Source: an uncultured Thermoleophilia bacterium (GTDB lineage: Bacteria > Actinomycetota > Thermoleophilia > UBA2241). From it: a stretch of DNA of 64,000 nt. Position 1 is the first letter of the stretch. Each line of letters opens with the position of its first letter. Where the stretch lies: assembly GCA_963702475.1 (NCBI GenBank), contig CAVPCT010000004.1, forward strand, positions 160,001 through 224,000. The letters are read 5' to 3'. Shown one piece after another: positions 7,147 through 63,560 of this stretch. The notes under the pieces were generated by a model that saw only the letters and a list, made by a program, of their open reading frames with translations, had not been told where the DNA came from and did not search any database. The position numbers and the translations under genes are program-made.

Positions 7147-8610
7147 TCATCGGAGCGCGGCCCCCGTCGCAGCCGCGTACGCCGCCACCAGCCTGTCGGA
7201 CGCCGCCACGACACCTTCGGGCGGCGGCGGCACCTCGTGCGAGGCCAGCAGGGCAAGCGCCTTGCGCCGAGCCCTCTCGGCCAGGTCGGGCGCTCCGGCC
7301 GCGGTCCAGTTCTCGCGGCTGTCGCGGTTCAGCAGCGTCGGGCGCCACTGCACCTCCCGCATGTGGCGCCGCGTGTGCTTGCTGCCCAGGAACTGGCCGC
7401 CCGGCCCCACCTGGGCGATCGCGTCCAGGGCCAGCGTCTCCTCGTCCACCTGCACCCCGGCGACCAGCCGCCGGTTGGCGGCGATGAACTCGTCCAGCAT
7501 CACGATCGCCTCGAGCGAGCAGGTGAGGCCGAAGTCCAGGTAGCCGACGTCGTGGGCGAGATTGGAGCCGGCCAACATGGCCAGCAGCGTCATCTGGTTC
7601 GCCTCCATACCCATCTGCGCGTCGGGCAGCTGGCTGTCGCTGGTGCCGGCGTTGCCCCAGTTGGGCAGGCCGAGCCACTTCGCCATCTCCACGGCGCACA
7701 TATAGCCGAGCTGGTAGCCGAGGTCGTTGTACGACGACTGCGCTGTGGCGATGTCGAGCACGGCGGAACCCATCCCGAACAGGAACGGCGCGCCCGGCGT
7801 GCGCAGCTGGTGGACGACGAGCCCGAACAGGCACTCGGCGATGCCCAGGGCCGTGTGGCCGGCGACGGTGATGGGCGCCGTGGCCCCCGCCAGCGGCGCC
7901 GGCGAGTAGTTGGTCGGCACGCCGGCGTCGGCGCACAGCAGGAGCTTCTCGACGCTGTCGCGGGGGTGTGTCAGCGGGCTGGTCGGCTCGTTGTACATGA
8001 GGAAGTACGGCTTGGCGCGAAGCTCGCCCAGGCCTCCGCGCAGGACGCGCGCGATCTCGATCATCACGGCCAGGTCGCGCTCGTTCTCGGCCGTCATCAC
8101 CAGCGGCTTCGTGGTGTTCTGCAGCATCGCGACGAAGCTCAGCAGGTACGACAGGTGCGGGTCCTGGTCCGTCGGATGCGCGGAGCTCATGACGAAGTCG
8201 ATGTTGGGGAGCGCGTCGCACAGCCGAGCCGCGCGCCGCACGTCTTCGAGCACGCTGGGGCGGTGCTCGCCGGTCTCCAGGTCGTAGGTGGACATGAGGT
8301 CCGAGCCCGTGCCGAAGTAGCTGTTGTAGCCGCCGAGCTCCATGGCCGGCTCGCCGCCGCGGTCGTAGGCCGTGATGACCGGCGGCGCGGTCTCCCGCGC
8401 GCGCTCGACGAGCTCGCGCGGTATCAGAACGTGTCCGGCCGGCGTCAGAACCGCGCCGCTGTCCAGCAGCATAGTCCGCGCGCCGTCGTGGTTGAGCTGC
8501 ATGCCGACCGCGCCGAGGATCTCGAGCGCGGCGTCGTAGAGGTCCTGCTTCGCCTGCTCGCTGAGAAAGCTCAGGTGACCGATACCGGAGGCGTTGTGAA
8601 GGTGCTTCAC
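7147..8610 (-). CDS. Trimethylamine methyltransferase (MttB) family protein, non-pyrrolysine
   Basis: FGTGSD, SPL.H, PAPLAGATAPITVAG, GAPFLFG, LGLPNWGNAGTSDSQLPDAQ and VGPGGQFLGSKHT motifs; GTG start at 8610 with AGGAG RBS. Confidence 0.9.
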   Translation of the reverse strand: MKHLHNASGIGHLSFLSEQAKQDLYDAALEILGAVGMQLNHDGARTMLLDSGAVLTPAGHVLIPRELVERARETAPPVITAYDRGGEPAMELGGYNSYFGTGSDLMSTYDLETGEHRPSVLEDVRRAARLCDALPNIDFVMSSAHPTDQDPHLSYLLSFVAMLQNTTKPLVMTAENERDLAVMIEIARVLRGGLGELRAKPYFLMYNEPTSPLTHPRDSVEKLLLCADAGVPTNYSPAPLAGATAPITVAGHTALGIAECLFGLVVHQLRTPGAPFLFGMGSAVLDIATAQSSYNDLGYQLGYMCAVEMAKWLGLPNWGNAGTSDSQLPDAQMGMEANQMTLLAMLAGSNLAHDVGYLDFGLTCSLEAIVMLDEFIAANRRLVAGVQVDEETLALDAIAQVGPGGQFLGSKHTRRHMREVQWRPTLLNRDSRENWTAAGAPDLAERARRKALALLASHEVPPPPEGVVAASDRLVAAYAAATGAALR

Positions 8611-8828
8611 GGGCGTGCTCCTGACCGTCGTGGCCCGTCGCGGCCGCGACGGCTGTCCTGTGCCCGACACGAGCACGTCACGCCGCGGAGCGCCTGGCGG
8701 CGCCGCGGCGCGGGTGACATCGCCAGTAACACGCGACCGATTGTCCGGGGGCGCCACGGCGCCGGTCAAGTGCGGCGGGGTCTCCGTTCTCGAATGCTGG
8801 ACAGAACGAGGCCGCGGGACCGCACGAG

Positions 8829-14165: not shown

Positions 14166-15599
14166 TCAACGGCCGCCGGCACCGGCGCCGCGTGTGTACC
14201 GCTCGAACGCGGCGCGCGCCTCGCGGCGGGCGTCATCGGGGATGGGCGTCGGCACGTGCGCGGCGAGGACGGCCTCGGCGCGCTCCAGCGCGTCACTCAC
14301 CAGGGAGCGCCCCGCGTACGCGGATGCTGCCTCGCGCTGGAAGACGGATGCGCGCCAGACCTCACCGCGGCGCGAGTTCACGCGAGAGCTGCGCCGGGCG
14401 AGAAACTGACCGCCCGGGCCGACCGCGGCGATGTCCTCGATCAGCGTCGACGCGTCGTCCACGGTGTCGGGCAATTCGAGCAGACGCCTGACCGACCCGA
14501 TGAGGTCGGAGTCGAGGATGGTCTTGGCCGTGGACACCGCATCGTCGACGATCCCGGCGCCGACGAGCAGATCAGCGCCGCACAGCACGGAGGTCGCCGC
14601 CGTCAGCGTGCCCTCGGAGCCGGCTTGGAAGTTGGCGGCCTTGGCATCCGAACTCATGCCGGCGCTCATGCTCGGCAGTCCGTACCGCCGGGTCATGGCC
14701 AGGCTCGCCATGTCGATCAGCGCGACCTCGGGCGTACCGCTGAGATACCCGCCGGTGCGCAGATGCGAGGAGCCGCCGATGGCGACCACCATGAGAGGGC
14801 AGCCGGGCGCCGCCAGCTGGAAGATGGTGACGGCGGCGAGGAGTTCCGCCAGCGTGATGACGGCCGTGCCAAGCACGCTCATGGGAGCCGTGGTGCCCAG
14901 CAGCGGCAGGGGATGGATGAGGATCGGCACTCCGTGGCGCGCGAGCTCGATCGAGGCCTCGAGCTTGTCGCCCTCGAACCGCAGCGGCGACACGGGGCAG
15001 TGCAGCGAGGAGTAGATCGGCCGCTCATGCATCGGCGCCCCCGCGATCGCCTCCAGCATCTCCAGGAGAGGCGGCACCTGCTCCGGCGAGTGCGCCACGA
15101 CGCTCTGCACGTGCTTGGAGGTGGACTCCAGGGCGATGAGATCGGTCTCGAGGCCCACCGTCGGCGCATCGATCTCACCCAACGTCACCGACGTCCAGAT
15201 GAAGTCGAGGTCGTCAAGCGCGTCGAAGAGGCCGTAGAAGTAGGCGAGGTCGTCGCGCGTGGCGTCACGCACCTCGTCGGTCACGTCGTCCAGGACCGTC
15301 ATCACCATGCCGTCCGTGCAGCAGGCCAGCGGCGAGCCCGCGCCGACGAGCAGGTCGTGCGCCGGGTCGCGGGCCGCGAGCCGCACGCTCCCGGGAGCCT
15401 TCTCCAGACAGCTCTCGACCAGCTCTGGAGGCAGGGTCGCGGTGCGCCGCTCCCCATCGACGCGCGCCCCCGCGCCGGCGAGAAGCTCCAGGACGACCGT
15501 CGATTCCACGCCGATGCCCACGTGGTCGAGGACGTGCAGGACGCGCTGATGCAGCGCGTCCTTCTCGGCGGCAGACAGGCACTCGAACTTCAGGTGCAT
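14166..15599 (-). CDS. MttB family methyltransferase, non-pyrrolysine
   Basis: LAARDP, TSKHVQ, PVSPL, PLPLLGTTAP, GTPE, YGLPSMSAGMSSDAK and VGPGGQFL motifs. Confidence 0.9.
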   Translation of the reverse strand: MHLKFECLSAAEKDALHQRVLHVLDHVGIGVESTVVLELLAGAGARVDGERRTATLPPELVESCLEKAPGSVRLAARDPAHDLLVGAGSPLACCTDGMVMTVLDDVTDEVRDATRDDLAYFYGLFDALDDLDFIWTSVTLGEIDAPTVGLETDLIALESTSKHVQSVVAHSPEQVPPLLEMLEAIAGAPMHERPIYSSLHCPVSPLRFEGDKLEASIELARHGVPILIHPLPLLGTTAPMSVLGTAVITLAELLAAVTIFQLAAPGCPLMVVAIGGSSHLRTGGYLSGTPEVALIDMASLAMTRRYGLPSMSAGMSSDAKAANFQAGSEGTLTAATSVLCGADLLVGAGIVDDAVSTAKTILDSDLIGSVRRLLELPDTVDDASTLIEDIAAVGPGGQFLARRSSRVNSRRGEVWRASVFQREAASAYAGRSLVSDALERAEAVLAAHVPTPIPDDARREARAAFERYTRGAGAGGR

Positions 15600-16539: not shown

Positions 16540-17983
16540 GTGACGCGCACGCCCGACATCATCAGCTTCACGCCCCTGCTGCGCTCGACGGCCGACGACA
16601 CCGCGACCATCGAACGCCTTCAGGCGGCGACGCTCGACATCCTCGAGCGCATCGGCGTCTGCTTCCCATGCGAGTCGGCGCTCGAGGTCTTTCGCCGCCA
16701 CGGCGCCGATGTGGACGGCGACGGCGTCGTCAGGCTGACGCCCGACCTGGTCGAGCGCGCTCTGGCCACGGCGCCGCGCTCGTTCGTGCTCGGCGGTCGC
16801 GAGCCGCGCTTCGACCTCACCCTCGACGGCACGCGGACGTACCTCTCGACCGAGGGCGTGGGCACGCTGGTCCGCGACGCGGAGACCGGCGAGGACGCGC
16901 TCCTCGCGCAAGGCCGACGTCGAGCTCATGGCCCGCATCGTCGACGCCCTGCCGGCGATCTCGTTCTTCTGGCCGCCGGTGAGCGCCCAGGACCACGCCC
17001 GGACCGCGCCGCTGCACGAGTGCCACGCCGGGCTGAAGGGCACGCTCAAGCACGTGCGCGGCGCCACGACCGTGCACCCGCGCCTGGCGGAGCGCATCGT
17101 CGAGATGGCGACCGTGGTGGCCGGCTCCGAGGCGGCGCGGCGCGCGCGGCCGCCGATCTGCGGCAACATCTGCACCATCAGCCCCCTGTCGCAGGACCAC
17201 ACGGGCATCGAGGCGGCGCTCGTCTACGCGCGGGCCGGCATCCCCGTGAGCTTCATGCCCATGCCGACCATGGGCTCGACGGCGCCGGCTTCGCTGGCCG
17301 GGGCGATCGTCCAGGGAGAGGCCGAGGTCGTGAGCGCCATGGTGCTCATGCAGCTGGCCGCTCCGGGAGCCCCGGTCATCCACAGCAACATCGTCTCGGC
17401 GATGGACCCGCGCAGCGGCGGCTACATCGGAGACATCGAGGCGCCGGCCGAGCGTCTCATCACCCGGCTCGGTCACGCCTGGGGCGTGCCGCAGCTCTGC
17501 GGTCCCTCGGTGACAGGCGACGAGCCGGACATCGGCTGGGAGTTCGGGTCGCGAGCCGGCATCGGCGCAGCCTTGCTGTCGGGCACGGAGGCTGAGATCA
17601 GCGGTGACCTCGGCGGTCTGCTCGACGGCTACTCGGTGCTCGATCCGCCCTTCATCATCCTGCAGCACGAGCTGGTGATGACCGCCAGGCGCGCGCTGGC
17701 CGAGCTCCCGGCCGACGCCGATCTCGCGCTCGATGTGATCGCGGACATCGGGCCGCGCGGCCACTACCTCTCCCATCAGCATACGCGCGACCACGTGCGC
17801 GGGTTCCCGCTGCCGATGCGGCACCGGGGGGTGGGGTACGGATCCGCCGAGGACGCGGCACGGGCGGAGTTCGCGCGCCTGGAGCGCGAGCACGAACCCG
17901 AGCCGCTGCCCGTCGATGTCCTCGCCGAGCTCGAGCGCATCCTCGCCGAGGCAGACCGCGACGCCGAGCAGCTGGCGGGCTGA
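16540..17983 (+). CDS. MttB family methyltransferase, non-pyrrolysine, with one +1 frameshift near 16894
   Basis: The N-terminus (ATLDILERIGV..., APRSFVLGGRE, YLSTEG) joins the 16928..17983 frame (TLKHVR, ISPL, PMPTMGSTAPASLAG, IGPRGHYL) if one G is removed from GAGGACG, giving ETGETRSSRKADVELM. Confidence 0.82.
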
Positions 17984-17999: not shown

Positions 18000-19418
18000 T
18001 CAGTCCCCGACCGTGAGCCGCCGGAAATCGGAGATCACCTGGTCGATGTGGCGCTCGACGTCGTCCGGCAGCGGCTGCACCCGATGGGTCGCCAGCAGCT
18101 CGCGCGCCCGCTCCAGCGCGTCCTGGATCAGCGTCCGGCCGCGCGACGCCTCGTACGTGCCGCGACGCATGATGCTCGGCTGCCAGACGTCGCGTGCTTG
18201 CTCCCGCGTGCTGCGCCGGCCCATGTAGTGTCCACCCGGGCCCACCGCGCGGATGTCGTCGACGAGGCAGCTGGCTGCGTCGAACTGCGCCCCCTGCATC
18301 TCCCGCTTCACCATGCCGGCGGCGTCGTTGTGCAGGACGATCGTGGCCAGGCTCGTGGCTTGCGCGCCGTCGAAGCAGCCCAGGCCGACGAGCGAGTCGG
18401 CGCCCACCAGCAGGTCGAGGATGCCCCCTCCTTCGACGCCGTCCTGGAAGTCCGGGGCCTTGCCGTCGCCGCCGAAGCCCCCTCCCTGGGTGGGCAGGCC
18501 GTAGACCTGCTTGGACATCTCGATGCAGGCCAGCGTCGCGGCTCCGCCCTCGGGCGAGCCGCACACGTAGAGCCCGCTGTGCAGGTCGGCGGACGCCGGC
18601 TCCGGCGAGGCGATCAGCGGGCAGCCGGGCGCCGCGAGCTGGAAGAGCACGACCGCCGAGAGCATCTCGGCCATGCAGATCACGGTGACTCCCGCCACCG
18701 AGATCGGCGCCGTGGTACCCATCAGCGGCATCGGCATGATGGCGATCGGCACGCCGGCGCGCGCCAGGGCGATGCTCGCCTCGGTCATGGCGCCGTCGTG
18801 GGCGAGCGGGGCGACCGTGCAGTTGATGGTCGAGAAGACCGGCCGCTCGGCCGGCGGCGCGCCGGCGACGGCGCTCATGATCTCGATCAGGGGCGCCACG
18901 TACTCGGGTCCGCGCACCTCATCCTGCACGTGCTTGGCGCACGAGCGGAACGAGATCGCCTCGATCTCGAGGTTGGCCGTCAGCGGGTCGAGGTCGCGCG
19001 CCGAGATCGTCGGCCACACGTAGTCGCAGTCGGGCAGAGCGTCGAACAGGCGCATGATGGTGCGCAGGTAGTCGGCGCTCCCCTCGTGCCGCTCGCCCGT
19101 CTCGTCGTCCACGACGTACGTCGCAGTGCCGTCGCTCGTGAAGCTCACGCTGCCGTCCCCTAGCCACACGTCGTTGGCCGGCTCGCGGGCGGCGAGCAGT
19201 AGCTTGCGCGGCGCCGTCTCCAGACACCGCATCACGAGCTCGCGCGGCAGCCGCGCCGTGAGGCGCTGGCGATCGAGGATCGCCTCTGTCCCCTCGAGCA
19301 CATCCATGGCCATCGGTGTGTTGAAGGCGACGCCCACCTCCTCCAGCACGGTGAGCGTCTGGTCGTGCAGCGTGGCGCGCTCCTCGTCGGACAGAAGGTG
19401 TAGCAGTGGCCGGGTCAT
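18000..19418 (-). CDS. MttB family methyltransferase, non-pyrrolysine
   Basis: LAAREP, FTSDG, AKHVQ, VAPL.HD, PMPLMGTTAP, GSPE, YGLPTQGGGFGGDGK and VGPGGHYM motifs. Confidence 0.9.
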   Translation of the reverse strand: MTRPLLHLLSDEERATLHDQTLTVLEEVGVAFNTPMAMDVLEGTEAILDRQRLTARLPRELVMRCLETAPRKLLLAAREPANDVWLGDGSVSFTSDGTATYVVDDETGERHEGSADYLRTIMRLFDALPDCDYVWPTISARDLDPLTANLEIEAISFRSCAKHVQDEVRGPEYVAPLIEIMSAVAGAPPAERPVFSTINCTVAPLAHDGAMTEASIALARAGVPIAIMPMPLMGTTAPISVAGVTVICMAEMLSAVVLFQLAAPGCPLIASPEPASADLHSGLYVCGSPEGGAATLACIEMSKQVYGLPTQGGGFGGDGKAPDFQDGVEGGGILDLLVGADSLVGLGCFDGAQATSLATIVLHNDAAGMVKREMQGAQFDAASCLVDDIRAVGPGGHYMGRRSTREQARDVWQPSIMRRGTYEASRGRTLIQDALERARELLATHRVQPLPDDVERHIDQVISDFRRLTVGD

Positions 19419-19468: not shown

Positions 19469-20863
19469 TCACGAGCCGCGCTCCCTGTCGGCCTGCGCCA
19501 CCACCGCCCGCATCCGCTGCTTGACATCGGCGTCGATGGCCGGCGGCTCGTGAGTCTCGAGCAGCTCGCACGCCCGGCGACGGGCGCGCTCGTACATGTC
19601 GCTCGCGCCGTCCGCTGCCCACTCCTCGCGCACGCGGCGGTCCATGATCCGCGGCTGGCTCTGCTCGCGCATGTGAGCGTAGGTGCTCGGCAGGCTCAGG
19701 AAGTCGCCGAAGGGCCCCACGGCGGCGATGTCGGAGCCGCCGAGCGTGTCGCGGGTGACGGCGATGCCACCCAGGAAGTGGCGGATCATGGCGATCCACT
19801 CGTCGTCCATGACGAGTACGGCAGGATCGAAGGTGACACCCGATTCGGTCATCCCCGCTCCGTAGACGTCGCTGGCCCCTGCCAGCGCCACTGCCAGAGC
19901 GGTGAGGGTCTTCTCGTGACCCAGCTGGGCGTCGCCGAGCTTGGAGTCGCCCTACGCACCGGCGATGCAGCTCGGCAGGCGGTACTGCTTCGACAGCTGG
20001 GCCACGGCGGCGCCGATGAGAGCCAGCTCGGGTGAGCCCACCGAGGCGGCGGCGTAGCGCAGGTCCATGGACGTGGTCGAGGATCCGTAGATGACCGGCA
20101 CCCCGCGCTCGGTGAGTTGCGCCAGCGTGATGCCGGCAAGGACCTCGGCGTTGTTCATCACCAGCGTGCCGGCCAAAGTGACCGGCGCCGAGCCCCCCGC
20201 CATGGCCATCGAGAGGATGCAGTCCGAAAGGCCCAGCCGCGCGCACTCGACGATCACCTCGGTGACGTCGCGCGGCAGCGTCAGCGGGCTCACCGGGCAG
20301 GTCCCGAAGCTCACGACCTCGTCGTCGCGCAGAGCGTCGAGGCTGCCGACGATACAGGCTCCCAGCTCGGCGCAGACGCGCACCTCCCAGCCGCTGGTCG
20401 CCTCGGTGCCGACCTGCTTGGTCGTGCTCAGCAGGGCGGCCTCGCAGCCGTGCACGGCGGCCGTGGCGGCCGGCACGTCGGTCGGCCGGACGGCGGCGGC
20501 GTAGCTGTCGATGTTGACCAGGGCGTCGACGAGAAGGGCGGCGTCGGCGGCGTCGGCCTTGCGCGGTTCGCGGCGCTCGCCGCTGCGCGGGTCGACGTAC
20601 ATGACGCCCTCGTCGAAGTTGCTGAACGTCACCGGCTCGTCCTCGTCGGGGGGGCAGGCGGCGATCGCCGCCTCGACGACCTCGCCGGGGATCCGCACCA
20701 CTCCGGTCTCGCAATCGATGCTCGCGCCGCCGTCGGCGAAGATGTCGCGCGCCTCGTCGTCCTCGACGAAGACCCCGGTCTCTTCGAGCACCCGCAGCGT
20801 CTGCGAGTGGATGGCGTCGAGGTCGCCGGCGGAGAGGACCTCGAGCCGCAAGGCGGGGGTCAT
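19469..20863 (-). CDS. mttB: Pyrrolysine-type trimethylamine:corrinoid methyltransferase; in-frame TAG at 19952-19954 (codon 304)
   Basis: ORFs 19952..20995 and 19469..19891 are in the same frame, separated only by one TAG: VGSPELALIGAAVAQLSKQYRLPSCIAGA-(TAG)-GDSKLGDAQLGHEKTLT...YGAGM. This matches the Pyl-site context of methanogen MttB. Confidence 0.9.
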
Positions 20864-21168
20864 GACGACGCACCACCCTGGTCGCCGCGCAGCGACCGCA
20901 CCCGGCCGCGGAAACGCTCGACGCAGTTGATCGGCAGGTCGAGCAGCTCGGCGATGCTGAACTTGGCCTCCGTCGCCGTCGGCTCGCCGACGCACTCGTT
21001 CTCGAGCTCGGTGAGGCGGCCGATGCCGTTCATCCCCGAGGCCAGCATGTGCACCAGGTGCACACCCAGGGCGTCTCCGGAGCCCATCTACAAGCCAGCG
21101 TAGTCGACCAGGTCCTGCGTCTGGTGCTGGTGATCCTCATGCGATTCCTCCGCCGATTCGAGAGGCAT
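20860..21168 (-). CDS. Mini or remnant dimethylamine methyltransferase (MtbB)-like ORF with in-frame TAG at 21088-21090
   Basis: MPLESAEESHEDHQHQTQDLVDYAGL-(TAG)-MGSGDALGVHLVHMLASGMNGI...AKFSIAELLDLPINCVERFR resembles the MtbB Pyl site (DGI-Pyl-IGVGDP.G....H.MASGM.GI) and its C-terminus. Its TGA overlaps the mttB ATG (ATGA). Confidence 0.65.
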
Positions 21169-21432: not shown

Positions 21433-22662
21433 TCAGACGTTCGTCGTCACCTGCTTGTGGATGACTACGTCCCACGCCGCGATCCCACGGAAGAAGGCTC
21501 TCCTCTCTTCCTTGTCGAGGACCTCACAGGGGAAGACGCCGGTGCGCCGAATCTGCCCCCGAAGCAGCATCAGCGACAGAACCGACGCCGGGATGGAGGT
21601 GATCCAGGAGACGTCGTTGGTCCCCGGGATCGTGGCGCACGCCTTCGTGACGTCCGGGCTGTCGGTCCACATCTTGTAGTGCATCATCTGGCCGGCCTTC
21701 GTGCCCTCGACGTCGACGGCCAGCACGGCCTGGCTCTTGATCCTTCCGGCCTCGACGAGCTCCATGCAGCGCCGCGGCGTCAGCGTCTTCGGCAGCTGCC
21801 CGCAGAAGACGTCCTTGACGGTCAGCGCCGGGTCGGTGCCGGCGACGGGCTTCTCGTCCATGAGGCCGAGCCCCTCGATGAGGAACTGCCACATGCTGCT
21901 GCTGGGGTCGCCCATCTTGAAGTCCACGTACCTCACCGGCTTGCCGAGGAACGCGGGGATGGTCACCGGCTCCTCGTGACAGTGGTAGTAGACCGTACCG
22001 GTGACACCGAGCGGCGCCGGAAAGTAGTAGTCCTCCTCGCCGGAGAACGGCGCCGCCCGCTTGTACTCGCCGTCTTCCCAGTAGACGGCCTCGTCGGCGC
22101 AGTCCTCCAGGTACGTCTGGAAGGACCATCCGGCGACCGGCTCGTCGCACTCTGCGACGCCGTAGTCTTTGATGCGGATGCTGTCGACCTCGTCCAGCTC
22201 GTCGGCGGCCTCCCTGGCCATCACGTTGACCAGCCCGGCGTCGCCGCCGGCCAGGATGATGGCCGTGAGGCCCTTGGCCTCGAACTCCCCGGCGTACTCG
22301 AGCTGTTCGACCAGGAACCGCTTGCCGTCACGCTCACCCAGCATCTCGTTCGAGGCCATGTCGATGTAGCTGATCCCGGCCTCCAACGCCGCCTCGATGA
22401 TCTGCCGGTTGAACGTCATCAAGGTGGCATTGACCACCAGGTCGTAGTGCCCGTGCGTGAACAACTCGACCAGCTGGGCCTTGTTCGACGCATCAACTCG
22501 CCCGGCCTCGATCTTCTCCGAGTCGACGAACCGGGCGACCTCCGCGGCCCGTTCGGCGTCCAGGTCGACGAGCAGGATGCGGTCGATCTCCGGCGCTCGT
22601 GCGAGGACGCCGCAGATCACGTTACCCTGGGCTCCGGCTCCGACGATGACGACCTCAGTCAT
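21433..22662 (-). CDS. Saccharopine dehydrogenase / carboxynorspermidine dehydrogenase family oxidoreductase
   Basis: VVIVGAGAQG Rossmann motif, LVVNA...N..I.EAALEAG.SYIDMA, G.DAGLVNV.A, WS..T and HEEPVTIP. Confidence 0.85.
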   Translation of the reverse strand: MTEVVIVGAGAQGNVICGVLARAPEIDRILLVDLDAERAAEVARFVDSEKIEAGRVDASNKAQLVELFTHGHYDLVVNATLMTFNRQIIEAALEAGISYIDMASNEMLGERDGKRFLVEQLEYAGEFEAKGLTAIILAGGDAGLVNVMAREAADELDEVDSIRIKDYGVAECDEPVAGWSFQTYLEDCADEAVYWEDGEYKRAAPFSGEEDYYFPAPLGVTGTVYYHCHEEPVTIPAFLGKPVRYVDFKMGDPSSSMWQFLIEGLGLMDEKPVAGTDPALTVKDVFCGQLPKTLTPRRCMELVEAGRIKSQAVLAVDVEGTKAGQMMHYKMWTDSPDVTKACATIPGTNDVSWITSIPASVLSLMLLRGQIRRTGVFPCEVLDKEERRAFFRGIAAWDVVIHKQVTTNV

Positions 22663-22818: not shown

Positions 22819-23457
22819 ATGCCGGAAGACGCCGCCAGGGACCCGCTAGACGAACTGCACCCCACCGCCAGGGCGATCCTCGTCGCCGCCCGCACCGTGC
22901 TGCGCGAGCGCGGCATGGCCGGACTCACCATCGAAGCGGTCGCCAACGAGGCCAACACCAGCCGCACCCAGATCCCCTATCACTTCGGCAGCCGGGCCGG
23001 CCTCGTCGAGGCGCTCTTCGACTGGCTGTTCCACGAGGTCTGGATGCGCTTCCTGCGTCCCCCGGGGGAAGCCCGGACGATGACGATCCACGAGGCGCTG
23101 GAGTGGAGCCGCCAGGAGATGGCCGACCTGGCCGCCGTGCGCGACGCCTGGGACCTGGTCGTGCACTCGCTGCGCGACGAGATGGCCCGCAGACGTCTGG
23201 TCATGCTCTACGCGCGCGACCGCCGGCTCGAGGTCGAGACGATCGGCCTCGGCCCGGGCGCGCCCTCCGGCGGGCCCGACCCTGAGGCCGAGCGCCGCAG
23301 CGACGCGATCGGCGCCGTGCTGCTGGCGATCGACGAGGGTCTCGGGCTGCAACTCGCCATCGACCCGGACTTCGACCTCGACGCCGCGCTCGGCGCGGCC
23401 GAGGAGATCCTGACGCACGGACTGGCCGAACCGCACGGCGAGAGGGACGCCGGATAG
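22819..23457 (+). CDS. TetR family transcriptional regulator
   Basis: ILVAARTVLRERGMAGLTIEAVANEANTSRTQIPYHFGSRAGL helix-turn-helix. Confidence 0.88.
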   Translation: MPEDAARDPLDELHPTARAILVAARTVLRERGMAGLTIEAVANEANTSRTQIPYHFGSRAGLVEALFDWLFHEVWMRFLRPPGEARTMTIHEALEWSRQEMADLAAVRDAWDLVVHSLRDEMARRRLVMLYARDRRLEVETIGLGPGAPSGGPDPEAERRSDAIGAVLLAIDEGLGLQLAIDPDFDLDAALGAAEEILTHGLAEPHGERDAG

Positions 23458-57359: not shown

Positions 57360-59150
57360 TCAGACCTCCGCGAACCCCAGGCGGCTGGCGAACACATCGA
57401 GAAAGCGGCTGTCGGTGGCCAGGTCGAGGAACCCGGTCAGATCGCGGACCTTGGCCATGCGGCGCCGGGCTCCGACGTCGATGAGCGCCATCTGGGCGCC
57501 GACGCCGGCGGCGTTGCCGACGAACGCCACGCGACGCTTGGGCACCGGCGGGAACAGGCCCAGGAACTGCGAGGCCTCGAGGTCGAGGTAGTTGCCGAAC
57601 GCGCCGGCGATATAGACGTTCTCGAGCTCATCCAGGCTGACTCCGAGCGTGTCCATGAGCAGGTACCAGCCGCTGGCGATGGCGCCCTTGGCGAGCTGCA
57701 GGGCGCGCACGTCGTGCTGCGTGAACACGATGTCGCCGTTGGCGCCCTCGCAGATGAAGTACTCGAGGCCGCCCTCACTCTCGCGCACGTGGGGATGGTC
57801 CTTCTGCAGGCGGCCGGTCTTGTCGACGATGCCCGCCCTGACCACGCCGGCCAGCAGATCGACTACGCCGGAGCCGCAGATGCCCACCGGCGCCGTGCCT
57901 GCGATGGTCTGGATATCAACCGGCTCGCCCTCGGGGGTGATGCGTACGCGCTCGATCGCGCCGGCCACCGCCTTCATACCGTTGCGGATCTGGTAACCCT
58001 CGAACGCCGGCCCCGAGGCACAGCTGGTGACGGTGACGCGGCCGTCCTTGACCAGCGCGATCTCGGTGTTGGTGCCGATGTCGATGGCCATGGCGGGGCG
58101 CTTCTTGTGCGACAGCCGCGTGGCGGCGATGACGGCCAGAGCGTCCGAGCCGACGAAGCCGGCGATGGGCGGCGGGAAGTGCACGCCGCCGTTGGGGTTC
58201 ATGTCGATGCCCAGCTCGCTCGCGCGGTAGGTGAGCGGCTCGGCGGCGGCAGGGGCGAACGGGGCCTGGCCGAGGCCGACCGGCGAGAGCCCGAGGGCGA
58301 GGTGGTGCATGGCCGTGTTGCCGACCACGGTCATGTCGTAGACGTGGTCGGGCTCGATGTTCTGACGCTCGTAGAGCGCCTTGAGATTCTCGTTGATGCC
58401 GCCGCGGACCACGCGCCCCAGCTCGCCGGCGGCGTCGCAGGTCGCTCCGTGGTCGATGCGCGAGATCACATCCTCGCCGTAGCGCATCTGCGGGTTCTCG
58501 ATGGCCTCCTGGTCGATGAGCACACCGCGCTCTAGGTCGAACAGGTAGGCGATCACCTTGGAGGTGCCGATGTCCACGGCCACGCCGTAGCACGGCGGCA
58601 GGCCGTCGTCGCCCTTGTGCACGTCGACCACGCGCTTGCCGTACAGCGTCGCGTTGACCTTCCACTTGCCGTCCCGCAGGGTCTTGGGCAGGCAGTCCAG
58701 GACGTTGAGCGGGACCTCCACGCCGCCAAGAGCCTCGTCGAAACGCTCGAGGTCCGAGCGTGCGTCCTCCAGCGTGGCCGGCTCGAGCTCGACGTGCTTC
58801 GTGACCACCGCTGGATGCGGCTTGCCGTGCTGCAGCTTGGACGTGGTGAGGATGCGACGCTGCCCGGCGGTGCCGCGCACCTCGATGCTGACACGAGCGC
58901 CTAGTGGATAGGCCTGACACGCGAGGCGCCAGCCCTCGTCGCGCAGCTTCTCGGGGATGCGCTTGAGCTCGCGGCTCGTGTGCTCAGACAACTCGCCGGC
59001 GCCCAGGCGCACCAGGCACTTGCCGCAGGTGCCGCGTCCGGCGCAGTCGGTACCGATCTCCACTGACGCGGCGACGAGGGCGTTGAACAGGGTCTCTTCT
59101 TCGGGGACGTCGAGAGTCAGCCCGATAGGCTCGACGAAGACTCGGGTCAC
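57360..59150 (-). CDS. ATP-dependent reductive activator of corrinoid proteins (RACo/RamA-like; ASKHA domain with N-terminal [2Fe-2S])
   Basis: CAGRGTCGKC...RLACQ, VAVDIGTS, NPQ..YGEDVISRI, VVGNTAM, GFVGSD, DIGTNTE, SCASGPAFEG, GICGSG and AGAFG motifs. Confidence 0.9.
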   Translation of the reverse strand: MTRVFVEPIGLTLDVPEEETLFNALVAASVEIGTDCAGRGTCGKCLVRLGAGELSEHTSRELKRIPEKLRDEGWRLACQAYPLGARVSIEVRGTAGQRRILTTSKLQHGKPHPAVVTKHVELEPATLEDARSDLERFDEALGGVEVPLNVLDCLPKTLRDGKWKVNATLYGKRVVDVHKGDDGLPPCYGVAVDIGTSKVIAYLFDLERGVLIDQEAIENPQMRYGEDVISRIDHGATCDAAGELGRVVRGGINENLKALYERQNIEPDHVYDMTVVGNTAMHHLALGLSPVGLGQAPFAPAAAEPLTYRASELGIDMNPNGGVHFPPPIAGFVGSDALAVIAATRLSHKKRPAMAIDIGTNTEIALVKDGRVTVTSCASGPAFEGYQIRNGMKAVAGAIERVRITPEGEPVDIQTIAGTAPVGICGSGVVDLLAGVVRAGIVDKTGRLQKDHPHVRESEGGLEYFICEGANGDIVFTQHDVRALQLAKGAIASGWYLLMDTLGVSLDELENVYIAGAFGNYLDLEASQFLGLFPPVPKRRVAFVGNAAGVGAQMALIDVGARRRMAKVRDLTGFLDLATDSRFLDVFASRLGFAEV

Positions 59151-60642: not shown

Positions 60643-62094
60643 TCAAGATAGTACAGCCTCTGGGCCGGCGGGGGAGCCGGCGCTCTCGGCGACGATCCGG
60701 GCGAGCGCCTCGGCCGCTTCCGGCCACAGGGGCAGGACCCGGTGCTCCTCGACGAACTGCCGCGCGAGAGCCGTCGCCTTGTCGTAGGGCCCCTCGCGGC
60801 CGGAGGAGACCCAGGCGTCCCACATGCTGCGATCGAGCAGCCGGGGACGCCACACCTCCTTCATGTGCCGCCGCGTGTGACGCTGGCCGAGGTAGTTGCC
60901 GCCGATACCGACCTGGGCGATCACGTCGAGGGCGACGGACTCGTCGTCGACCGCGATGCCGGCGGCGATGGCCGCGTTCCAGGAGAAGACCTCGGCGTCC
61001 ATGACGAGCTGCTGCGCGCCGAAGGCCCCGCCGGCACCCAGCGTCCCGGCGCCGGCGACCACGTCGGCGCCGGCCGCGGCGACGGCGAGCGAGCCGAGCG
61101 CATCCTGCGTGCAGGCCTGCCAGTCGGGCTCGTGGCTGCCGGTGGCCATGCCGAAGGCCGCGACCGGCAGACCGACCAGGCGGGCCAACTGCACGCAGGC
61201 GACCTGGAAGAGCACGGCCTGCGGGCCGCAGGCAGGCAGGCCGGCCAGCGACGGCCGGGCGAGGTAGAAGAACGGCGCGCCGGGGGCCGCCGCCTGCACG
61301 GCGGCGCAGGCAGCGAGCACGCCGGCGTGGTGGCGCACGAGTGCCGCGGCGAGGTCCGGCGCCGTGCCGCCGGCGGCCGGCGCGACGCCGGGCGCGGGCG
61401 GCACGGCGGAGAGCGGTGGCGGCGCGGCGACCGCGCCCGGCTCTGCTCCCTCCGGCGGGCCGGCGCCGGCGTCCGCGGCGGACGGGGCCGACACGAAGCT
61501 TACGGGCAGCCCGGCGCGGGCAAAGACCTCGGCGGCGGGCCGGACCTCGGGGCCGCCGCTCAGACTCAGCGGAGGACGTCGGCGCAGCTCAGCCTCGGAG
61601 CCGGCGACGGCCTGGGCCATGCGCACGGCGCCCGCGGCCTCCGCTGCCGTGCGCAACGTCGTCAGCTGCACGTGCTTCGACGTGCCGGCGAGACACAGCG
61701 CGAGCTCACCGAGCGCCGTCTGGCCGGCAACGCGCACCGGCAGCCCGGCGACGATGGCGACCTCGGGCAGCGCATCGGCCAGCCTGACGAGACCGGCCAG
61801 ATCGGCGGCGGTGGCAGGCAGCGGGTCGCCGCCTGCCGGCGGCCGCACCCGCGGCGCAGGCCCGCCGGTGGCGAGCAGAGGGCTGCCACCTCCGAGACGC
61901 ACGTCGCGCTCTGGGGCGCGGCCGGCCAGGATGAACGTCTCCGGCGAGGCGGTCACTGCGGCTTGCGCCGCGCCCGCCGCCGCGCTCAGCGACTCGAGCG
62001 CGGCCGCGTGCACGCGCCGCACGTCAACCTCGCTCAGCACGCGCAGTTCCAGACGCGCCGAGGATGGCGCCGTCACAGCCGGCGTCTCACTCAT
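60643..62094 (-). CDS. Divergent MttB family protein with deletions and an Ala/Pro-rich insertion
   Basis: Retains GTSKHVQ, ELRRRP, GLPVAAFGMATGSHEPDWQA and VGIGGNYLGQRHTRRHM; lacks the SPL and P.P.AG.TAP core segments. Confidence 0.75.
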   Translation of the reverse strand: MSETPAVTAPSSARLELRVLSEVDVRRVHAAALESLSAAAGAAQAAVTASPETFILAGRAPERDVRLGGGSPLLATGGPAPRVRPPAGGDPLPATAADLAGLVRLADALPEVAIVAGLPVRVAGQTALGELALCLAGTSKHVQLTTLRTAAEAAGAVRMAQAVAGSEAELRRRPPLSLSGGPEVRPAAEVFARAGLPVSFVSAPSAADAGAGPPEGAEPGAVAAPPPLSAVPPAPGVAPAAGGTAPDLAAALVRHHAGVLAACAAVQAAAPGAPFFYLARPSLAGLPACGPQAVLFQVACVQLARLVGLPVAAFGMATGSHEPDWQACTQDALGSLAVAAAGADVVAGAGTLGAGGAFGAQQLVMDAEVFSWNAAIAAGIAVDDESVALDVIAQVGIGGNYLGQRHTRRHMKEVWRPRLLDRSMWDAWVSSGREGPYDKATALARQFVEEHRVLPLWPEAAEALARIVAESAGSPAGPEAVLS

Positions 62095-63560
62095 CCCACG
62101 CCCGCCAGCTCGGCGTCGGCGCGCGCCACGATGCTGCGGAGCTCGGCCGCCAGGTCCTCCGGCAGCGGCTCCGGCTCGTGCGTCGCCAGGACCTCGTCGG
62201 CGATCTCCGTCGCCTTCTCCAGGGCGCCGCGCCGGCCGTCACGGATCCACGACTCGTAGGGCTCACGGTCCCACACCCGCGGCCGCCACAACTCGCGCAT
62301 GTGGTCGCGCGTGTGCTTCTCGCCCAGGTACGTCCCTCCCTGGCCCACGGCCTTGATGACGTCCACAGCCAGCGTCTCGTCGTCCACCGCGATGCCGCCG
62401 GCCATCCTCTTCACGATGCGGTAGATCTCGGTCTCCATGACCATGTGCGGATAGCTGAGGATCTTCGAGCCATTGAGCAGGCCGGCGCCGTTCATCATGT
62501 CGGCGCCGCCCATGACGCTGGCGAAGGTGCTCAGCGAGTCGTCCACGGCGGCCTGCCAGTCCGGCTCCTTGGCCCCGGTCGCCATAGTCCCCATGGCGAT
62601 GGGCAGGCCGTAGAAGTGCGCCAGCTGTGAACACGCCGTTGCCAGCAGGTAGTCCTCCGGCGCGCCGCCGGTGTAGCCGCCGGTCGTGAGGTCGATCACG
62701 CTCGGCGCGGCCGAGACGAAGCACGGCACGCCGGGCGAGGCGAGCTGCAGCAGCACGATGCCGCTGAGCGCCTCGGCGTTGTGCACGACCAGCGTGCCGG
62801 CCATCGTCGCAGGGCCGGTGCCGGCCGCCAGCGGCATGGGCATGACGCCGCAGGGCAGCCCGGACTGCGCGGCGACGAGGTTGGCCTCCAGGTTGGGTCC
62901 GTCGTGCCCCAGCGGGTCGACGGCACACTGCATCGAGCTGACGATGGGCCGCGCCCGCAACTCGTCGGTGCCGCCGGCGATGGCCGCCGCCATCTCGACC
63001 ACGTAGCGCATGGGCTTCTCGCCCTGCGTCGTCACCGTCTGGAAGTGCTTACTCGTATTGGCGAAGACGGCCTCGGCGTCGTGCAACGCCTTGGTGGCCG
63101 GCGGCACGTCGGTGCTGGTGACGATGGGGCCCCAGTAGTAGCTCAGCTCGGGGATGGCGTCGACGAAGCGGGCGCTCGTCGCCGCGTCCGCCTTGGTGCT
63201 CGAGCGCTTCTCCCCGGTGACGTGGTCCCAGACGAACACGCCCGAGCCGTCGTTGCTCAGGTACGAGTGCCGGCCGTCGATCACGAGGTCACACTCCGGA
63301 TCGCGCGCCGCAAGCAGGTACTCGTGCGGCGCACGGCCGAGCGCCTCGGTGACGACCTCCTCGGGAAACCTGACCATCTGCGTTCCGCGGTCCACGAGGC
63401 AGCCGTTCTGTTCGAGCACGTCCAGCGACTTCTGACTGGGAAAGCGGCAGCCGACCTCGGCCAGAACGTCGAGCGTGGCCTCGTGGATGCGCACGAGATC
63501 CATGGGCGTGAGGACGTTCCAGGAGAGACGCGGCGCGATGGGGTCGATTCTGGCGCTCAT
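62091..63560 (-). CDS. MttB family methyltransferase, non-pyrrolysine
   Basis: LAARDP, YLSNDG, TSKHFQ, PMPLAAGTGPATMAGTLV, GAPE, YGLPIAMGTMATGAKEPDWQA and VGQGGTYLGEKHT. Confidence 0.92.
   Translation of the reverse strand: MSARIDPIAPRLSWNVLTPMDLVRIHEATLDVLAEVGCRFPSQKSLDVLEQNGCLVDRGTQMVRFPEEVVTEALGRAPHEYLLAARDPECDLVIDGRHSYLSNDGSGVFVWDHVTGEKRSSTKADAATSARFVDAIPELSYYWGPIVTSTDVPPATKALHDAEAVFANTSKHFQTVTTQGEKPMRYVVEMAAAIAGGTDELRARPIVSSMQCAVDPLGHDGPNLEANLVAAQSGLPCGVMPMPLAAGTGPATMAGTLVVHNAEALSGIVLLQLASPGVPCFVSAAPSVIDLTTGGYTGGAPEDYLLATACSQLAHFYGLPIAMGTMATGAKEPDWQAAVDDSLSTFASVMGGADMMNGAGLLNGSKILSYPHMVMETEIYRIVKRMAGGIAVDDETLAVDVIKAVGQGGTYLGEKHTRDHMRELWRPRVWDREPYESWIRDGRRGALEKATEIADEVLATHEPEPLPEDLAAELRSIVARADAELAGVG

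What the first reader, a model, noticed from the sequence alone, without database searches (positions are those of the whole stretch)
19469..20863. Pyrrolysine-coding trimethylamine methyltransferase (in-frame amber) in a high-GC, Actinomycetota-like genome
Seen: two ORFs share a frame and are separated only by a TAG at 19952-19954. Read through, they give a 464-aa MttB with ...LPSCIAGA*GDSKLGDAQLGHEKT.... Established: Pyl-MttB carries Pyl in the LP..VAG.-Pyl-.D.K..D.Q.GHEKT context, and Pyl is mainly known from methanogens, some Firmicutes and Deltaproteobacteria. Inference: this organism has, or recently had, an expanded genetic code. Many other genes here end in TAG, so decoding would be ambiguous or context-dependent. 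Standard annotation would split this gene in two.
Basis: partly seen in the sequence, partly recalled or inferred. Interest (0 to 1): 0.9.

Follow-up and report, generated by a model that had tools for sequence, protein, structure and literature searches.

The report
Pyrrolysine-coding mttB in a Thermoleophilia bacterium
This is a real gene for a trimethylamine-type methyltransferase whose in-frame stop codon is read as the rare 22nd amino acid pyrrolysine; it lies in an uncultured actinobacterium that has the full pyrrolysine machinery, a trait already reported in passing for this group.

Summary
On the minus strand, 20863..19469 is one 464-codon frame with a single TAG (19954-19952). That TAG aligns with Pyl334 of the solved Methanosarcina barkeri MttB. 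The protein passes NCBIfam's Pyl-MttB equivalog cut-off.

The organism's own genome (4.3 Mb, 70% GC, 9 contigs) carries pylB-pylC-pylD-pylT, pylSn and pylSc. Its pylT structure is supported by covariation. TAG sits at the Pyl column in 25 methyltransferase genes, 21 of them intact: 13 mttB, 7 mtbB and 1 mtmB.

TAG occupies the same column in 72 of 74 related loci. Codons after it are under purifying selection. All close relatives are Thermoleophilia (Actinomycetota) MAGs. PylSc is present in 51 of 56 sampled genomes of the family, and PylSn in none of about 369 sampled Actinomycetota outside the class.

TAG still ends about 18% of genes, RF1 is present, and there is no back-up-stop adaptation.

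Novelty is limited. Two papers mention Pyl in Actinobacteria in passing, and this scan has confirmed the same trait in other Thermoleophilia genomes.

This copy is unusual in three ways: Asp replaces the "invariant" Gly110, 15 residues are deleted, and no corrinoid-protein gene lies nearby.

Verdict: new member of a known kind.

The parts
19469..20863 (-). Pyl-encoding mttB-family gene, 464 codons including one UAG
   Evidence: Translation. Pfam MTTB 258.9 bits. NCBIfam TIGR02369 trimeth_pyl equivalog 549.4 bits against a cut-off of 525. PDB 7xcm/7xcl E = 1e-87 to 1e-88. AF2 model's best fold match is 7xcl_A, TMq 0.77.
19952..19954 (-). UAG codon 304, the predicted pyrrolysine codon
   Evidence: Aligns with X334 of 7xcl_A. 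TAG is in the same column in 72 of 74 related loci and in 15 of 67 MttB-family frames of the own genome.
19855..19954 (-). Match to Rfam RF02510 PYLIS_3 (mttB), starting exactly at the UAG
   Evidence: 52.0 bits against a gathering score of 38, E = 2.6e-9. The match is carried mostly by conserved coding sequence. Several model pairs are non-standard, and my own structure tests were weak.
20860..21168 (-). 102-codon MtbB-C-terminus-like ORF with its own TAG (21090-21088); its TGA overlaps the mttB ATG (ATGA)
   Evidence: The translation shows ...DYAGL-O-MGSGDALGVHLVHMLASGM..., which matches the MtbB Pyl context. Sub-threshold PYLIS_2 (mtbB) match starting at its TAG, 22.3 bits against 36. Its C-terminal part is conserved next to orthologous mttB in L023 (73% over 55 aa) and L018-L020.
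18000..19418 (-). Non-Pyl MttB-superfamily paralogue, 50 nt downstream on the same strand
   Evidence: Pfam MTTB 240.6 bits. Gly at the Pyl column.
21433..22662 (-). Saccharopine-dehydrogenase-like gene upstream on the same strand
   Evidence: Pfam Sacchrp_dh_NADP and Sacchrp_dh_C.
22819..23457 (+). Divergently oriented TetR-family regulator
   Evidence: Pfam TetR_N.
57369..58094 (-). RamA-like corrinoid reductive activase domain, the nearest candidate activator
   Evidence: PF14574 RACo_C_ter 257.2 bits at G000:C4:217369-218094.

Best explanation
The gene encodes a full-length MttB-family methylamine:corrinoid methyltransferase, and its UAG codon 304 is translated as pyrrolysine. The organism is an uncultured Thermoleophilia bacterium. 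It makes pyrrolysine with PylB, PylC and PylD (from lysine; recalled pathway). It charges pyrrolysine onto tRNA-Pyl(CUA) with a split synthetase, PylSn plus PylSc. Pyl-tRNA then competes with release factor 1 at UAG. The finished enzyme uses the pyrroline ring of Pyl304, with Tyr334, to bind and activate a methylamine. Trimethylamine is the default assignment. The enzyme passes one methyl group to Co(I) of a corrinoid protein encoded elsewhere in the genome. Shown here: gene integrity, TAG position, TAG conservation, selection on the downstream codons, and presence and conservation of all pyl parts. Inferred: actual Pyl insertion, the substrate, and the partner corrinoid protein.
For: 1. TAG aligns with Pyl334 of 7xcl_A, and Met249, Tyr364 and Gly372 are kept as M219, Y334 and G342.
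2. TIGR02369 scores 549.4 against a cut-off of 525.
3. The own genome holds PylSc (314.6 bits, cut-off 178), PylB (438.1, cut-off 348), PylC (323.8 summed, cut-off 248), PylD (209.1, cut-off 150) and PylSn (126.2, cut-off 51), all without internal stops.
4. ARAGORN finds tRNA-Pyl(cta) 50 nt after pylD, and it is the only CUA tRNA among 51 tRNAs.
5. On the 11 distinct sequences among 21 family copies of pylT, all 22 pairs are 100% paired. Seven pairs show changes on both sides, three of them in the 6-bp anticodon stem, and the CUA is invariant.
6. TAG is at the Pyl column in 72 of 74 related loci.
7. dN/dS after the TAG is 0.22-0.39.
8. Another 24 TAG-at-Pyl-column methyltransferase genes are in the same genome.
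9. PylSc passes its cut-off in 51 of 56 sampled family genomes. pylT is found in 56 of 61.
10. Corrinoid proteins (26 ORFs), RamA-like activases (3 loci) and URO-D-type methyltransferases (11 hits) are present.
11. Ellenbogen 2023 reports transcripts of Pyl-mttB and Pyl-mtbB from Actinobacteriota MAGs (passages read).
Against: There is no protein-level evidence. The runs found hold only contig fragments of relatives.

This copy departs from the structural paradigm. The Gly110-Thr111 pair, which Li et al. 2023% conserved in 66 Pyl-MttBs, is Asp84-Glu85 here. About 15 residues at the start of the TIM barrel are missing in this gene and its six closest orthologues.

The nearest corrinoid-protein gene is 34 kb away. 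On contig 9, by contrast, the Pyl mtmB, mtbB and mttB copies each have one within 50 nt.

TAG ends 580 of 3127 crude gene calls, and prfA is present. Some termination at codon 304 is therefore expected.

The genome is a MAG with an estimated 6.5% contamination. The window (contig 4) and the pyl genes (contig 3) are linked only by binning, equal GC content and the same co-occurrence in relatives.
Confidence: 0.88

Rival explanations
1. The gene is Pyl-encoded and functional, but this orthologue group has shifted to a methylated amine other than trimethylamine. It would be one of 13 diverged Pyl-MttB paralogues with different substrates.
For: Asp replaces Gly110, and 15 residues are deleted at the start of the barrel, only in this gene and in L018-L023. 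The Gly110 position varies across lineage paralogues: G 28, D 21, S 16, A 1 and gap 6 of 72. The 13 full-length Pyl-MttB copies are only 44-59% identical to this one. The gene has no adjacent MttC, sits among non-Pyl MttB paralogues and TetR-family regulators, one with a BetI-type C-terminal domain. A more canonical mttB-mttC pair exists on contig 9.
Against: The protein still passes the TIGR02369 equivalog cut-off. Pyl, Tyr364, Met249 and Gly372 are kept. Gly110 acts through its main-chain carbonyl, so a side-chain change need not alter chemistry. No Pyl enzyme with a different substrate class is known to me (recalled).
Confidence: 0.25
2. The gene is an inactive relic. The TAG terminates translation and the 3' part is untranslated.
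For: TAG is a common stop here and RF1 is present. The genome also holds broken Pyl-type copies: 2 partial mttB, 2 split mtbB, and the mtbB-like mini-ORF just upstream.
Against: TAG is conserved in 72 of 74 loci across 45-84% identity. The downstream 160 codons have dN/dS of 0.22-0.39 and GC3 of 0.91. There is no frameshift or second stop. The pyl machinery is intact.
Confidence: 0.04
3. The TAG is a sequencing or assembly error for a sense codon.
For: None was found. Raw reads of the source sample were not available.
Against: The same codon is present in 72 independent assemblies. The place is covered by contigs of four runs, and no variant at 19952-19954 appears among the listed differences, although 279 rows were not shown. 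Twenty-four other genes in this genome carry TAG at the homologous column.
Confidence: 0.01
4. The UAG is read through, but by a different suppressor or by near-cognate decoding, so a standard amino acid is inserted.
For: Two Pyl-clade paralogues have Leu (CTC) at this column. This shows that the scaffold tolerates a standard residue there.
Against: tRNA-Pyl is the only CUA-anticodon tRNA among the 51 that ARAGORN found. The complete PylSn/PylSc/PylBCD set is conserved together with it.
Confidence: 0.02

Closest known systems
Methanosarcina barkeri MttB, the Pyl334 trimethylamine:corrinoid methyltransferase (PDB 7XCL, 7XCM, 7XCN; Li et al. 2023, PMC9842639)
   Same: Same family (E = 1e-88). 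The UAG is at the Pyl334 column. Met249, Tyr364 and Gly372 are kept. The AF2 model's best fold match is 7xcl_A, TMq 0.77. Rfam PYLIS_3 matches over its gathering score.
   Different: The host is a bacterium. Gly110-Thr111 is replaced by Asp84-Glu85. About 15 residues corresponding to roughly 83-99 are deleted. No adjacent mttC. Identity is about 50% over the C-terminal 360 residues only.
Pyl-encoding mttB and mtbB expressed by Actinobacteriota MAGs of a thawing permafrost mire (Ellenbogen et al. 2023, PMC10805028; genus Bog-752 is named there)
   Same: Same phylum and same kind of gene. A MAG titled bog_752 holds homologues 54-64% identical to this gene, each with TAG at the Pyl column (loci L026 and L046).
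   Different: That paper inferred Pyl from gene truncation. Its main text does not mention pylS, pylT or pylB (0 occurrences). The machinery, its family-wide distribution and the size of the Pyl gene set are shown here.
Bacterial split PylSn + PylSc pyrrolysine systems (Guo et al. 2022, PMC9630628)
   Same: PylSn and PylSc are separate genes and pylBCD is adjacent to pylT. That paper counts two Actinobacteria among 81 bacterial PylRS genomes.
   Different: In this genome pylSc lies 16.5 kb from pylT, with a corrinoid protein, transporters, a TetR gene and a Pyl-mtbB in between. In relatives G008 and G122 the gap is 1.4 and 3.8 kb.
Olavius algarvensis delta-1 symbiont, described in 2007 as the bacterium with the most Pyl proteins (Zhang & Gladyshev 2007, PMC1976440)
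   Same: One bacterium with many Pyl-mtbB and Pyl-mttB genes and also a tRNA-Sec. TAG is still used as a stop. That paper found no common RNA signal.
   Different: That organism had 8 Pyl genes (6 MtbB and 2 MttB). This genome has 21 intact and 4 broken ones, and it is an actinobacterium.
Non-Pyl MttB superfamily demethylases such as MtgB of Desulfitobacterium hafniense (PDB 2QNE, 9YCE)
   Same: Same fold and superfamily (E = 2e-56). About 50 such paralogues are in this genome, five of them in the window.
   Different: Those enzymes have a standard residue at the Pyl column and act on quaternary amines. The window's gene has TAG and the GHEKT context of the Pyl clade.

Membership tests
Pyl-dependent trimethylamine methyltransferase MttB (TIGR02369 / PF06253) | Whole-protein score above the curated equivalog cut-off | tested here: met
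   TIGR02369 scores 549.4 against 525. PF06253 scores 258.9 against 25.
Pyl-dependent trimethylamine methyltransferase MttB (TIGR02369 / PF06253) | In-frame UAG at the Pyl334 column | tested here: met
   Codon 304 aligns with X334 of 7xcl_A. It is conserved in 72 of 74 loci.
Pyl-dependent trimethylamine methyltransferase MttB (TIGR02369 / PF06253) | Tyr364 (proton shuttle), Met249 and Gly372 of the active site | tested here: met
   They correspond to Y334, M219 and G342. In the 72 Pyl loci the counts are Y 67, M 68 and G 70.
Pyl-dependent trimethylamine methyltransferase MttB (TIGR02369 / PF06253) | Gly110-Thr111 cis-peptide pair, stated to be 100% conserved in 66 Pyl-MttBs | tested here: not met
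   F109-G110-T111-G112 aligns with F-G-E-G of paralogue L144, and that aligns with F83-D84-E85-G86 here. The position is G 28, D 21, S 16, A 1 and gap 6 of 72 in this lineage. Supplementary Fig. 4 of Li 2023 could not be seen.
Pyl-dependent trimethylamine methyltransferase MttB (TIGR02369 / PF06253) | MttB TIM-barrel fold | tested here: inconclusive
   The AF2 model has pLDDT 67.4 and pTM 0.71. Its best match is 7xcl_A with TMq 0.77 but rmsd 8.5 A. The fold class agrees, but the effect of the 15-residue deletion is not resolved.
Pyl-dependent trimethylamine methyltransferase MttB (TIGR02369 / PF06253) | Cognate corrinoid protein MttC encoded beside it | tested here: not met
   The nearest B12-binding ORF is 34 kb away. 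The contig 9 mttB copy has one 44 nt downstream.
Pyl-dependent trimethylamine methyltransferase MttB (TIGR02369 / PF06253) | TMA-dependent methylation of the corrinoid protein; pyrrolysine present in the protein | not testable with these tools
   This needs an enzyme assay and mass spectrometry.
Pyrrolysine genetic-code expansion system (pylT, pylS, pylBCD) | tRNA with CUA anticodon and the tRNA-Pyl architecture (6-bp anticodon stem, 3-nt variable loop, one base between acceptor and D stems, 5-nt D loop; hallmarks recalled) | tested here: met
   ARAGORN calls tRNA-Pyl at G000:C3:641046-641118. All 22 pairs are 100% paired, and 7 have changes on both sides. The Rfam generic tRNA model does not see it.
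Pyrrolysine genetic-code expansion system (pylT, pylS, pylBCD) | PylRS catalytic domain and N-terminal tRNA-binding domain | tested here: met
   TIGR02367 scores 314.6 against 178.15. TIGR03912 scores 126.2 against 51.15.
Pyrrolysine genetic-code expansion system (pylT, pylS, pylBCD) | PylB, PylC and PylD biosynthesis genes | tested here: met
   The scores are 438.1 against 348.2, 323.8 against 248.3 and 209.1 against 150.05. The genes are contiguous and have no internal stops.
Rfam RF02510 PYLIS_3 (mttB) | Score above gathering threshold, beginning at the UAG | tested here: met
   52.0 bits against 38 at 19954-19855.
Rfam RF02510 PYLIS_3 (mttB) | A conserved RNA structure that acts in UAG recoding | tested here: inconclusive
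   The fold z-score is -2.15, with 6 of 200 shuffles as good. The RNAalifold covariation term is only -0.77 on 22 sequences. The one co-varying hairpin, 66 nt downstream, coincides with the ALAGA(S/N) codons and with composition shifts.

The most novel reading that the evidence does not exclude
One family of Thermoleophilia has turned pyrrolysine from a single-purpose residue into the basis of a radiating enzyme family. This genome has 13 diverged Pyl-MttB, 7 Pyl-MtbB and 1 Pyl-MtmB genes. The window's orthologue group has Asp at the 'invariant' Gly110 position, a 15-residue barrel-start deletion and no cognate MttC. It may be a pyrrolysine enzyme for a methylated amine other than tri-, di- or monomethylamine, which would be the first new substrate class for the 22nd amino acid. 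All of this happens while UAG stays a normal stop for roughly 550 other genes, with no back-up stops.
Probability: 0.2. Interest if true: 0.75.

Novelty: new member of a known kind. Interest (0 to 1): 0.35.

Why it matters
Standard annotation splits this gene, and about 24 more in the same genome, into fragments. That hides a large methylamine-demethylating capacity in an abundant, uncultured soil, peat and sediment actinobacterial lineage.

Bacterial use of tri-, di- and monomethylamine competes with methylotrophic methanogens for the same substrates, so it bears on methane budgets (the context of Ellenbogen 2023).

For genetic-code biology, the lineage is a natural case of heavy Pyl use: 21 intact UAG-Pyl genes alongside RF1, frequent UAG stops and no back-up-stop adaptation.

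The high-GC actinobacterial PylSn/PylSc/tRNA-Pyl set, and the natural variation at the Gly110 position, are also material for enzymology and code-expansion work.

Tried and rejected
Reads. No run held more than 31% of the sampled words. The four runs laid (three DNA, one RNA library) are Logan contigs of relatives and paralogues. The bin with the TAG is covered in all four, and no variant at 19952-19954 is among the listed differences. However, 279 rows were not shown, so this neither proves the TAG in the source reads nor shows transcription.

PYLIS structure. There is only a marginal energy z-score and almost no covariation. I do not claim a recoding structure.

TAG depletion. I sampled one same-genus genome without pylS or pylT (G014, 400 kb of 1.66 Mb). 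It has TAG at 72 of 245 crude stops. G000 has 156 of 734. G014 differs strongly in composition (66% GC, TAA 29%), and the gene caller is crude. With n = 1 and this confounding, no conclusion follows.

Back-up stops. The extension to the next in-frame stop is the same after TAG and TGA: median 53 against 55 codons, and 12.6% are 10 codons or fewer in both. There is no adaptation. Coding-like extensions follow 70 of 580 TAG stops and 180 of 2443 TGA stops. The excess of about 27 is roughly the size of the Pyl methyltransferase set, so I see no sign of many further Pyl genes.

AF2. The model is too uncertain to say what the 15-residue deletion does: pLDDT is below 50 at 220-233, 261-280 and 301-323.

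Rfam scan of the pylT region. No tRNA family matched, so pylT rests on ARAGORN plus covariation.

Neighbourhood conservation. It is only partial. The downstream non-Pyl mttB and the mini-ORF recur near some orthologues but in different arrangements, so no operon claim is made.

Donor of the pyl genes. This was not determined. The only named non-actinobacterial MttB relatives are Desulfobacterales and Desulfobacteraceae MAGs at 48-50% identity and one Alphaproteobacteria MAG at 45%.

Literature. 'pyrrolysine' + 'Thermoleophilia' returned 1 irrelevant paper. 'pyrrolysine' + 'Actinobacteriota' returned 5, + 'Actinomycetota' 8, and + 'Actinobacteria' 64, of which 25 were listed. 'pyrroproteome' returned 1. 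'pyrrolysine' + mttB + MAGs + bacteria + pylS returned 10, all on archaea. None describes the pyl machinery of Thermoleophilia. Subscription papers and all supplements were out of reach. Kivenson et al. 2025 (Science) was seen only as a citation.
Full report
**Observation.** The feature is on the minus strand. From ATG 20863-20861 to TGA 19471-19469 there is one frame of 464 sense codons, interrupted only by TAG at 19954-19952, which is codon 304. Under table 11 the frame falls into two ORFs of 347 and 140 aa. Both have the GC3 of real genes in this 70% GC genome, 0.90 and 0.91.

**Identity of the protein.** Pfam MTTB scores 258.9 bits. NCBIfam's equivalog model for the pyrrolysine-containing trimethylamine methyltransferase, TIGR02369, scores 549.4 bits against a cut-off of 525. 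The best solved relatives are the M. barkeri MttB structures 7XCM and 7XCL (E = 4e-88 and 2e-87). In the 7XCL alignment the TAG codon falls on the X that stands for Pyl334. An AF2 model built on 21 sequences has pLDDT 67.4 and pTM 0.71. It finds 7xcl_A as its best fold match, with TMq 0.77 and rmsd 8.5 A.

**The machinery is in the same genome.** The window is G000:C4:160001-224000 of a 4.31-Mb, 9-contig assembly with 93.8% completeness and 6.5% contamination. All contigs have 69.5-70.9% GC.

- Contig 3 carries pylB (637885-638913), pylC (638955-640109) and pylD (640193-640975).
- It also carries a tRNA-Pyl(CUA) gene (641046-641118), pylSn (642228-642485) and, 16.5 kb from pylT, pylSc (657647-658372, minus strand).
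- All the protein genes are above NCBIfam cut-offs and free of internal stops.

The tRNA has a 6-bp anticodon stem, a 3-nt variable loop, one base between the acceptor and D stems, a 5-nt D loop if C12-G18 pairs, and an encoded CCA. The hallmark list is recalled, not taken from a call. It is the only CUA tRNA among the 51 found.

Rfam's generic tRNA model does not detect it, so I tested it by covariation. Twenty-one copies from the family (11 distinct sequences) keep all 22 pairs in 100% of cells. Seven pairs changed on both sides, three of them in the anticodon stem. None of 500 shuffles reached the observed covariation score, and partners slid by 1-3 columns gave 0-1 such pairs. The CUA is invariant.

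prfA (RF1) is present at 477 bits against a cut-off of 423.

**The TAG is selected, not accidental.** A scan of species-representative genomes returned 74 loci. In 72 of them TAG occupies the Pyl column. The other 2 are 28-30%-identical non-Pyl paralogues with Ser. Against the six closest orthologues (78-84% identity), dN/dS is 0.19-0.27 before the TAG and 0.22-0.39 after it. The 160 codons after the TAG are therefore maintained as protein.

**Taxonomy and distribution.** Of the 74 loci, 70 have record titles reading Thermoleophilia, Actinomycetota or Actinomycetes MAGs. The exceptions are three Desulfobacterales or Desulfobacteraceae MAGs (48-50% identity) and one Alphaproteobacteria MAG (45%).

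- In a sample of 301 genomes of the class, PylSc passes its cut-off in 60.
- By my count of the rows, these are G000, 32 of 36 same-genus genomes, 18 of 19 genomes from other genera of the same family, 9 of 55 from a second family, and 0 of 190 from the remaining families.
- pylT DNA is found in 56 of 61 family genomes.
- The three same-genus genomes with no PylSc match above E = 1e-5 (G002, G014, G110; 1.7-2.5 Mb, 93-98% complete) also lack pylT.
- In a sample of 401 genomes of the phylum, PylSn is found in 2, G000 and G010, both of this class. It is therefore found in none of about 369 sampled genomes outside the class.

**The Pyl gene set of this genome.** I made stop-to-stop frames with TAG read through (15168 frames of at least 150 codons) and searched them with the window's MttB and with the genome's MtbB and MtmB. 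This gave 67, 14 and 5 hits. After alignment, TAG sits in the Pyl column as follows (consistent).

| Family | Rows with TAG at the Pyl column | Intact | Broken |
|---|---|---|---|
| MttB | 15 of 67 | 13 full-length | 2 partial |
| MtbB | 9 of 14 | 7 | 2 split by frameshifts |
| MtmB | 1 of 5 | 1 | 0 |
| Total | 25 | 21 | 4 |

The benchmark I could read is the Olavius delta-1 symbiont, with 8 Pyl genes. It was called the bacterial record in 2007, and I do not know the current record.

Contig 9 holds a canonical-looking island. Its order is Pyl-mtmB plus corrinoid protein, an amino-acid permease, Pyl-mtbB plus corrinoid protein, an SSF transporter, a PAS protein, then Pyl-mttB plus corrinoid protein. 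The genome has 26 corrinoid-protein-like ORFs, 3 RamA-like activase loci (one in the window) and 11 URO-D-family hits.

**UAG as a stop.** Among 3127 crude GC3-based gene calls, 2445 end in TGA, 580 in TAG and 102 in TAA.

- The distance to the next in-frame stop is the same after TAG and TGA: median 53 against 55 codons, and 12.6% are 10 codons or fewer in both. There is no back-up-stop adaptation.
- Coding-like extensions follow 70 of 580 TAG stops and 180 of 2443 TGA stops. The excess of about 27 is about the size of the Pyl methyltransferase set.
- Rfam's PYLIS_3 (mttB) model matches from the UAG onward at 52.0 bits against 38. That match is mostly conserved coding sequence. My own tests give z = -2.15 and a covariation term of -0.77, so I do not claim a functional recoding element.

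**How this copy differs.** Li et al. 2023 (passages read) name Gly110-Thr111 (a cis peptide whose carbonyl holds the water bound to the pyrroline nitrogen), Met249, Pyl334, Tyr364 and Gly372. They state that Gly110 and Tyr364 are 100% conserved in 66 Pyl-MttBs.

- Met249, Tyr364 and Gly372 are kept here as M219, Y334 and G342.
- Gly110-Thr111 could only be placed through an undeleted paralogue. F109-G110-T111-G112 aligns with F-G-E-G, which aligns with F83-D84-E85-G86 in the window's gene.
- Across the 72 Pyl loci this position is G 28, D 21, S 16, A 1 and gap 6. Thr111 is Glu in 65. The 'invariant' glycine is therefore not invariant in this lineage.
- This gene and its six closest orthologues also lack about 15 residues that all other Pyl-MttBs have at the start of the TIM barrel.
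- Its nearest corrinoid-protein gene is 34 kb away.
- These points lower confidence that trimethylamine is its substrate. They do not affect the Pyl reading.

**Comparison with what is known.** Guo et al. 2022 found PylRS in 81 bacterial genomes, including 'two Actinobacteria' (one passage read; repeated in a 2025 review). Ellenbogen et al. [quoted passage not shown] Their main text has no occurrence of pylS, pylT or pylB (passages read). A MAG titled bog_752 is among my hits.

Earlier agents of this scan confirmed the same trait in at least six other Thermoleophilia genomes. The finding is therefore a well-supported new member of a known kind.

What I did not find in print is threefold: the near-universal presence of the system in one Thermoleophilia family, the size of the Pyl gene set, and the variation at the Gly110 position. 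Supplements, which may list the relevant MAGs and alignments, were closed.

**Verdict.** Best explanation: a functional, Pyl-encoded MttB-family methyltransferase in a Pyl-decoding Thermoleophilia bacterium (confidence 0.88). The substrate of this particular paralogue remains open.

Noticed in passing
window 20860-21168 (-): A 102-codon ORF resembles the C-terminal part of MtbB. It has its own TAG (21090-21088) in the MtbB Pyl context and a sub-threshold PYLIS_2 match (22.3 bits against 36). Its stop overlaps the mttB start (ATGA). Its C-terminal half recurs next to orthologous mttB genes (L023 at 73% identity, L018-L020 at 55-58%). It may be either a relic or a conserved small protein.
   Followed up: partly
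G000:C4:42533-43942 (+) and G000:C4:59973-61373 (-), outside the window: Two MttB paralogues lie inside the Pyl clade (50-52% identical to the window's gene, GHEKT context kept). They have Leu, codon CTC, at the Pyl column instead of TAG. They are natural Pyl-to-Leu replacements.
   Followed up: partly
window 21433-22662 (-) and G000:C3:645979-647253 (+): Saccharopine-dehydrogenase-like genes lie both directly upstream of the Pyl-mttB and inside the stretch between pylSn and pylSc. A link to lysine supply for pyrrolysine is conceivable but untested.
   Followed up: no
G000:C3:641046-658372: pylSc is 16.5 kb from pylT in this genome but 1.4 kb (G008) and 3.8 kb (G122) in relatives. The intervening DNA holds a Germane/Gmad2 gene, pylSn, a 403-aa corrinoid protein, a saccharopine-DH-like gene, an EamA transporter, a TetR gene and a Pyl-mtbB.
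   Followed up: partly
window 16549-17983 (+): An MttB-family paralogue matches Pfam in two pieces in different frames (C4:176549-176890 and 176895-177794). It is probably frameshifted.
   Followed up: no
G000:C3:167171-167268: A tRNA-Sec (UCA) gene is present, so the organism appears to use both the 21st and the 22nd amino acids.
   Followed up: no
G000: C5:571067-572416, C4:65316-66659, C9:248475-249818, C2:42577-43938: Four MtmB-family paralogues have no TAG (V, M, S or I at the Pyl column). Several sit next to corrinoid-protein genes. A 2026 paper on a non-pyrrolysine MtmB homologue for tetramethylammonium and choline appeared in a search listing only.
   Followed up: no
G014 (same genus, 1.66 Mb, one contig): A small-genome congener without pylSc or pylT has very different stop usage in a 400-kb sample: TGA 41%, TAA 29%, TAG 29%, at 66% GC.
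   Followed up: partly
window 7147-8769 (-), 14166-15599 (-), 18000-19418 (-), 60688-63524 (-): Several non-Pyl MttB-superfamily paralogues crowd the window, which is part of roughly 50 in the genome. Near them are TetR-family regulators (one with a BetI-type C-terminal domain) and a RamA-like activase.
   Followed up: partly
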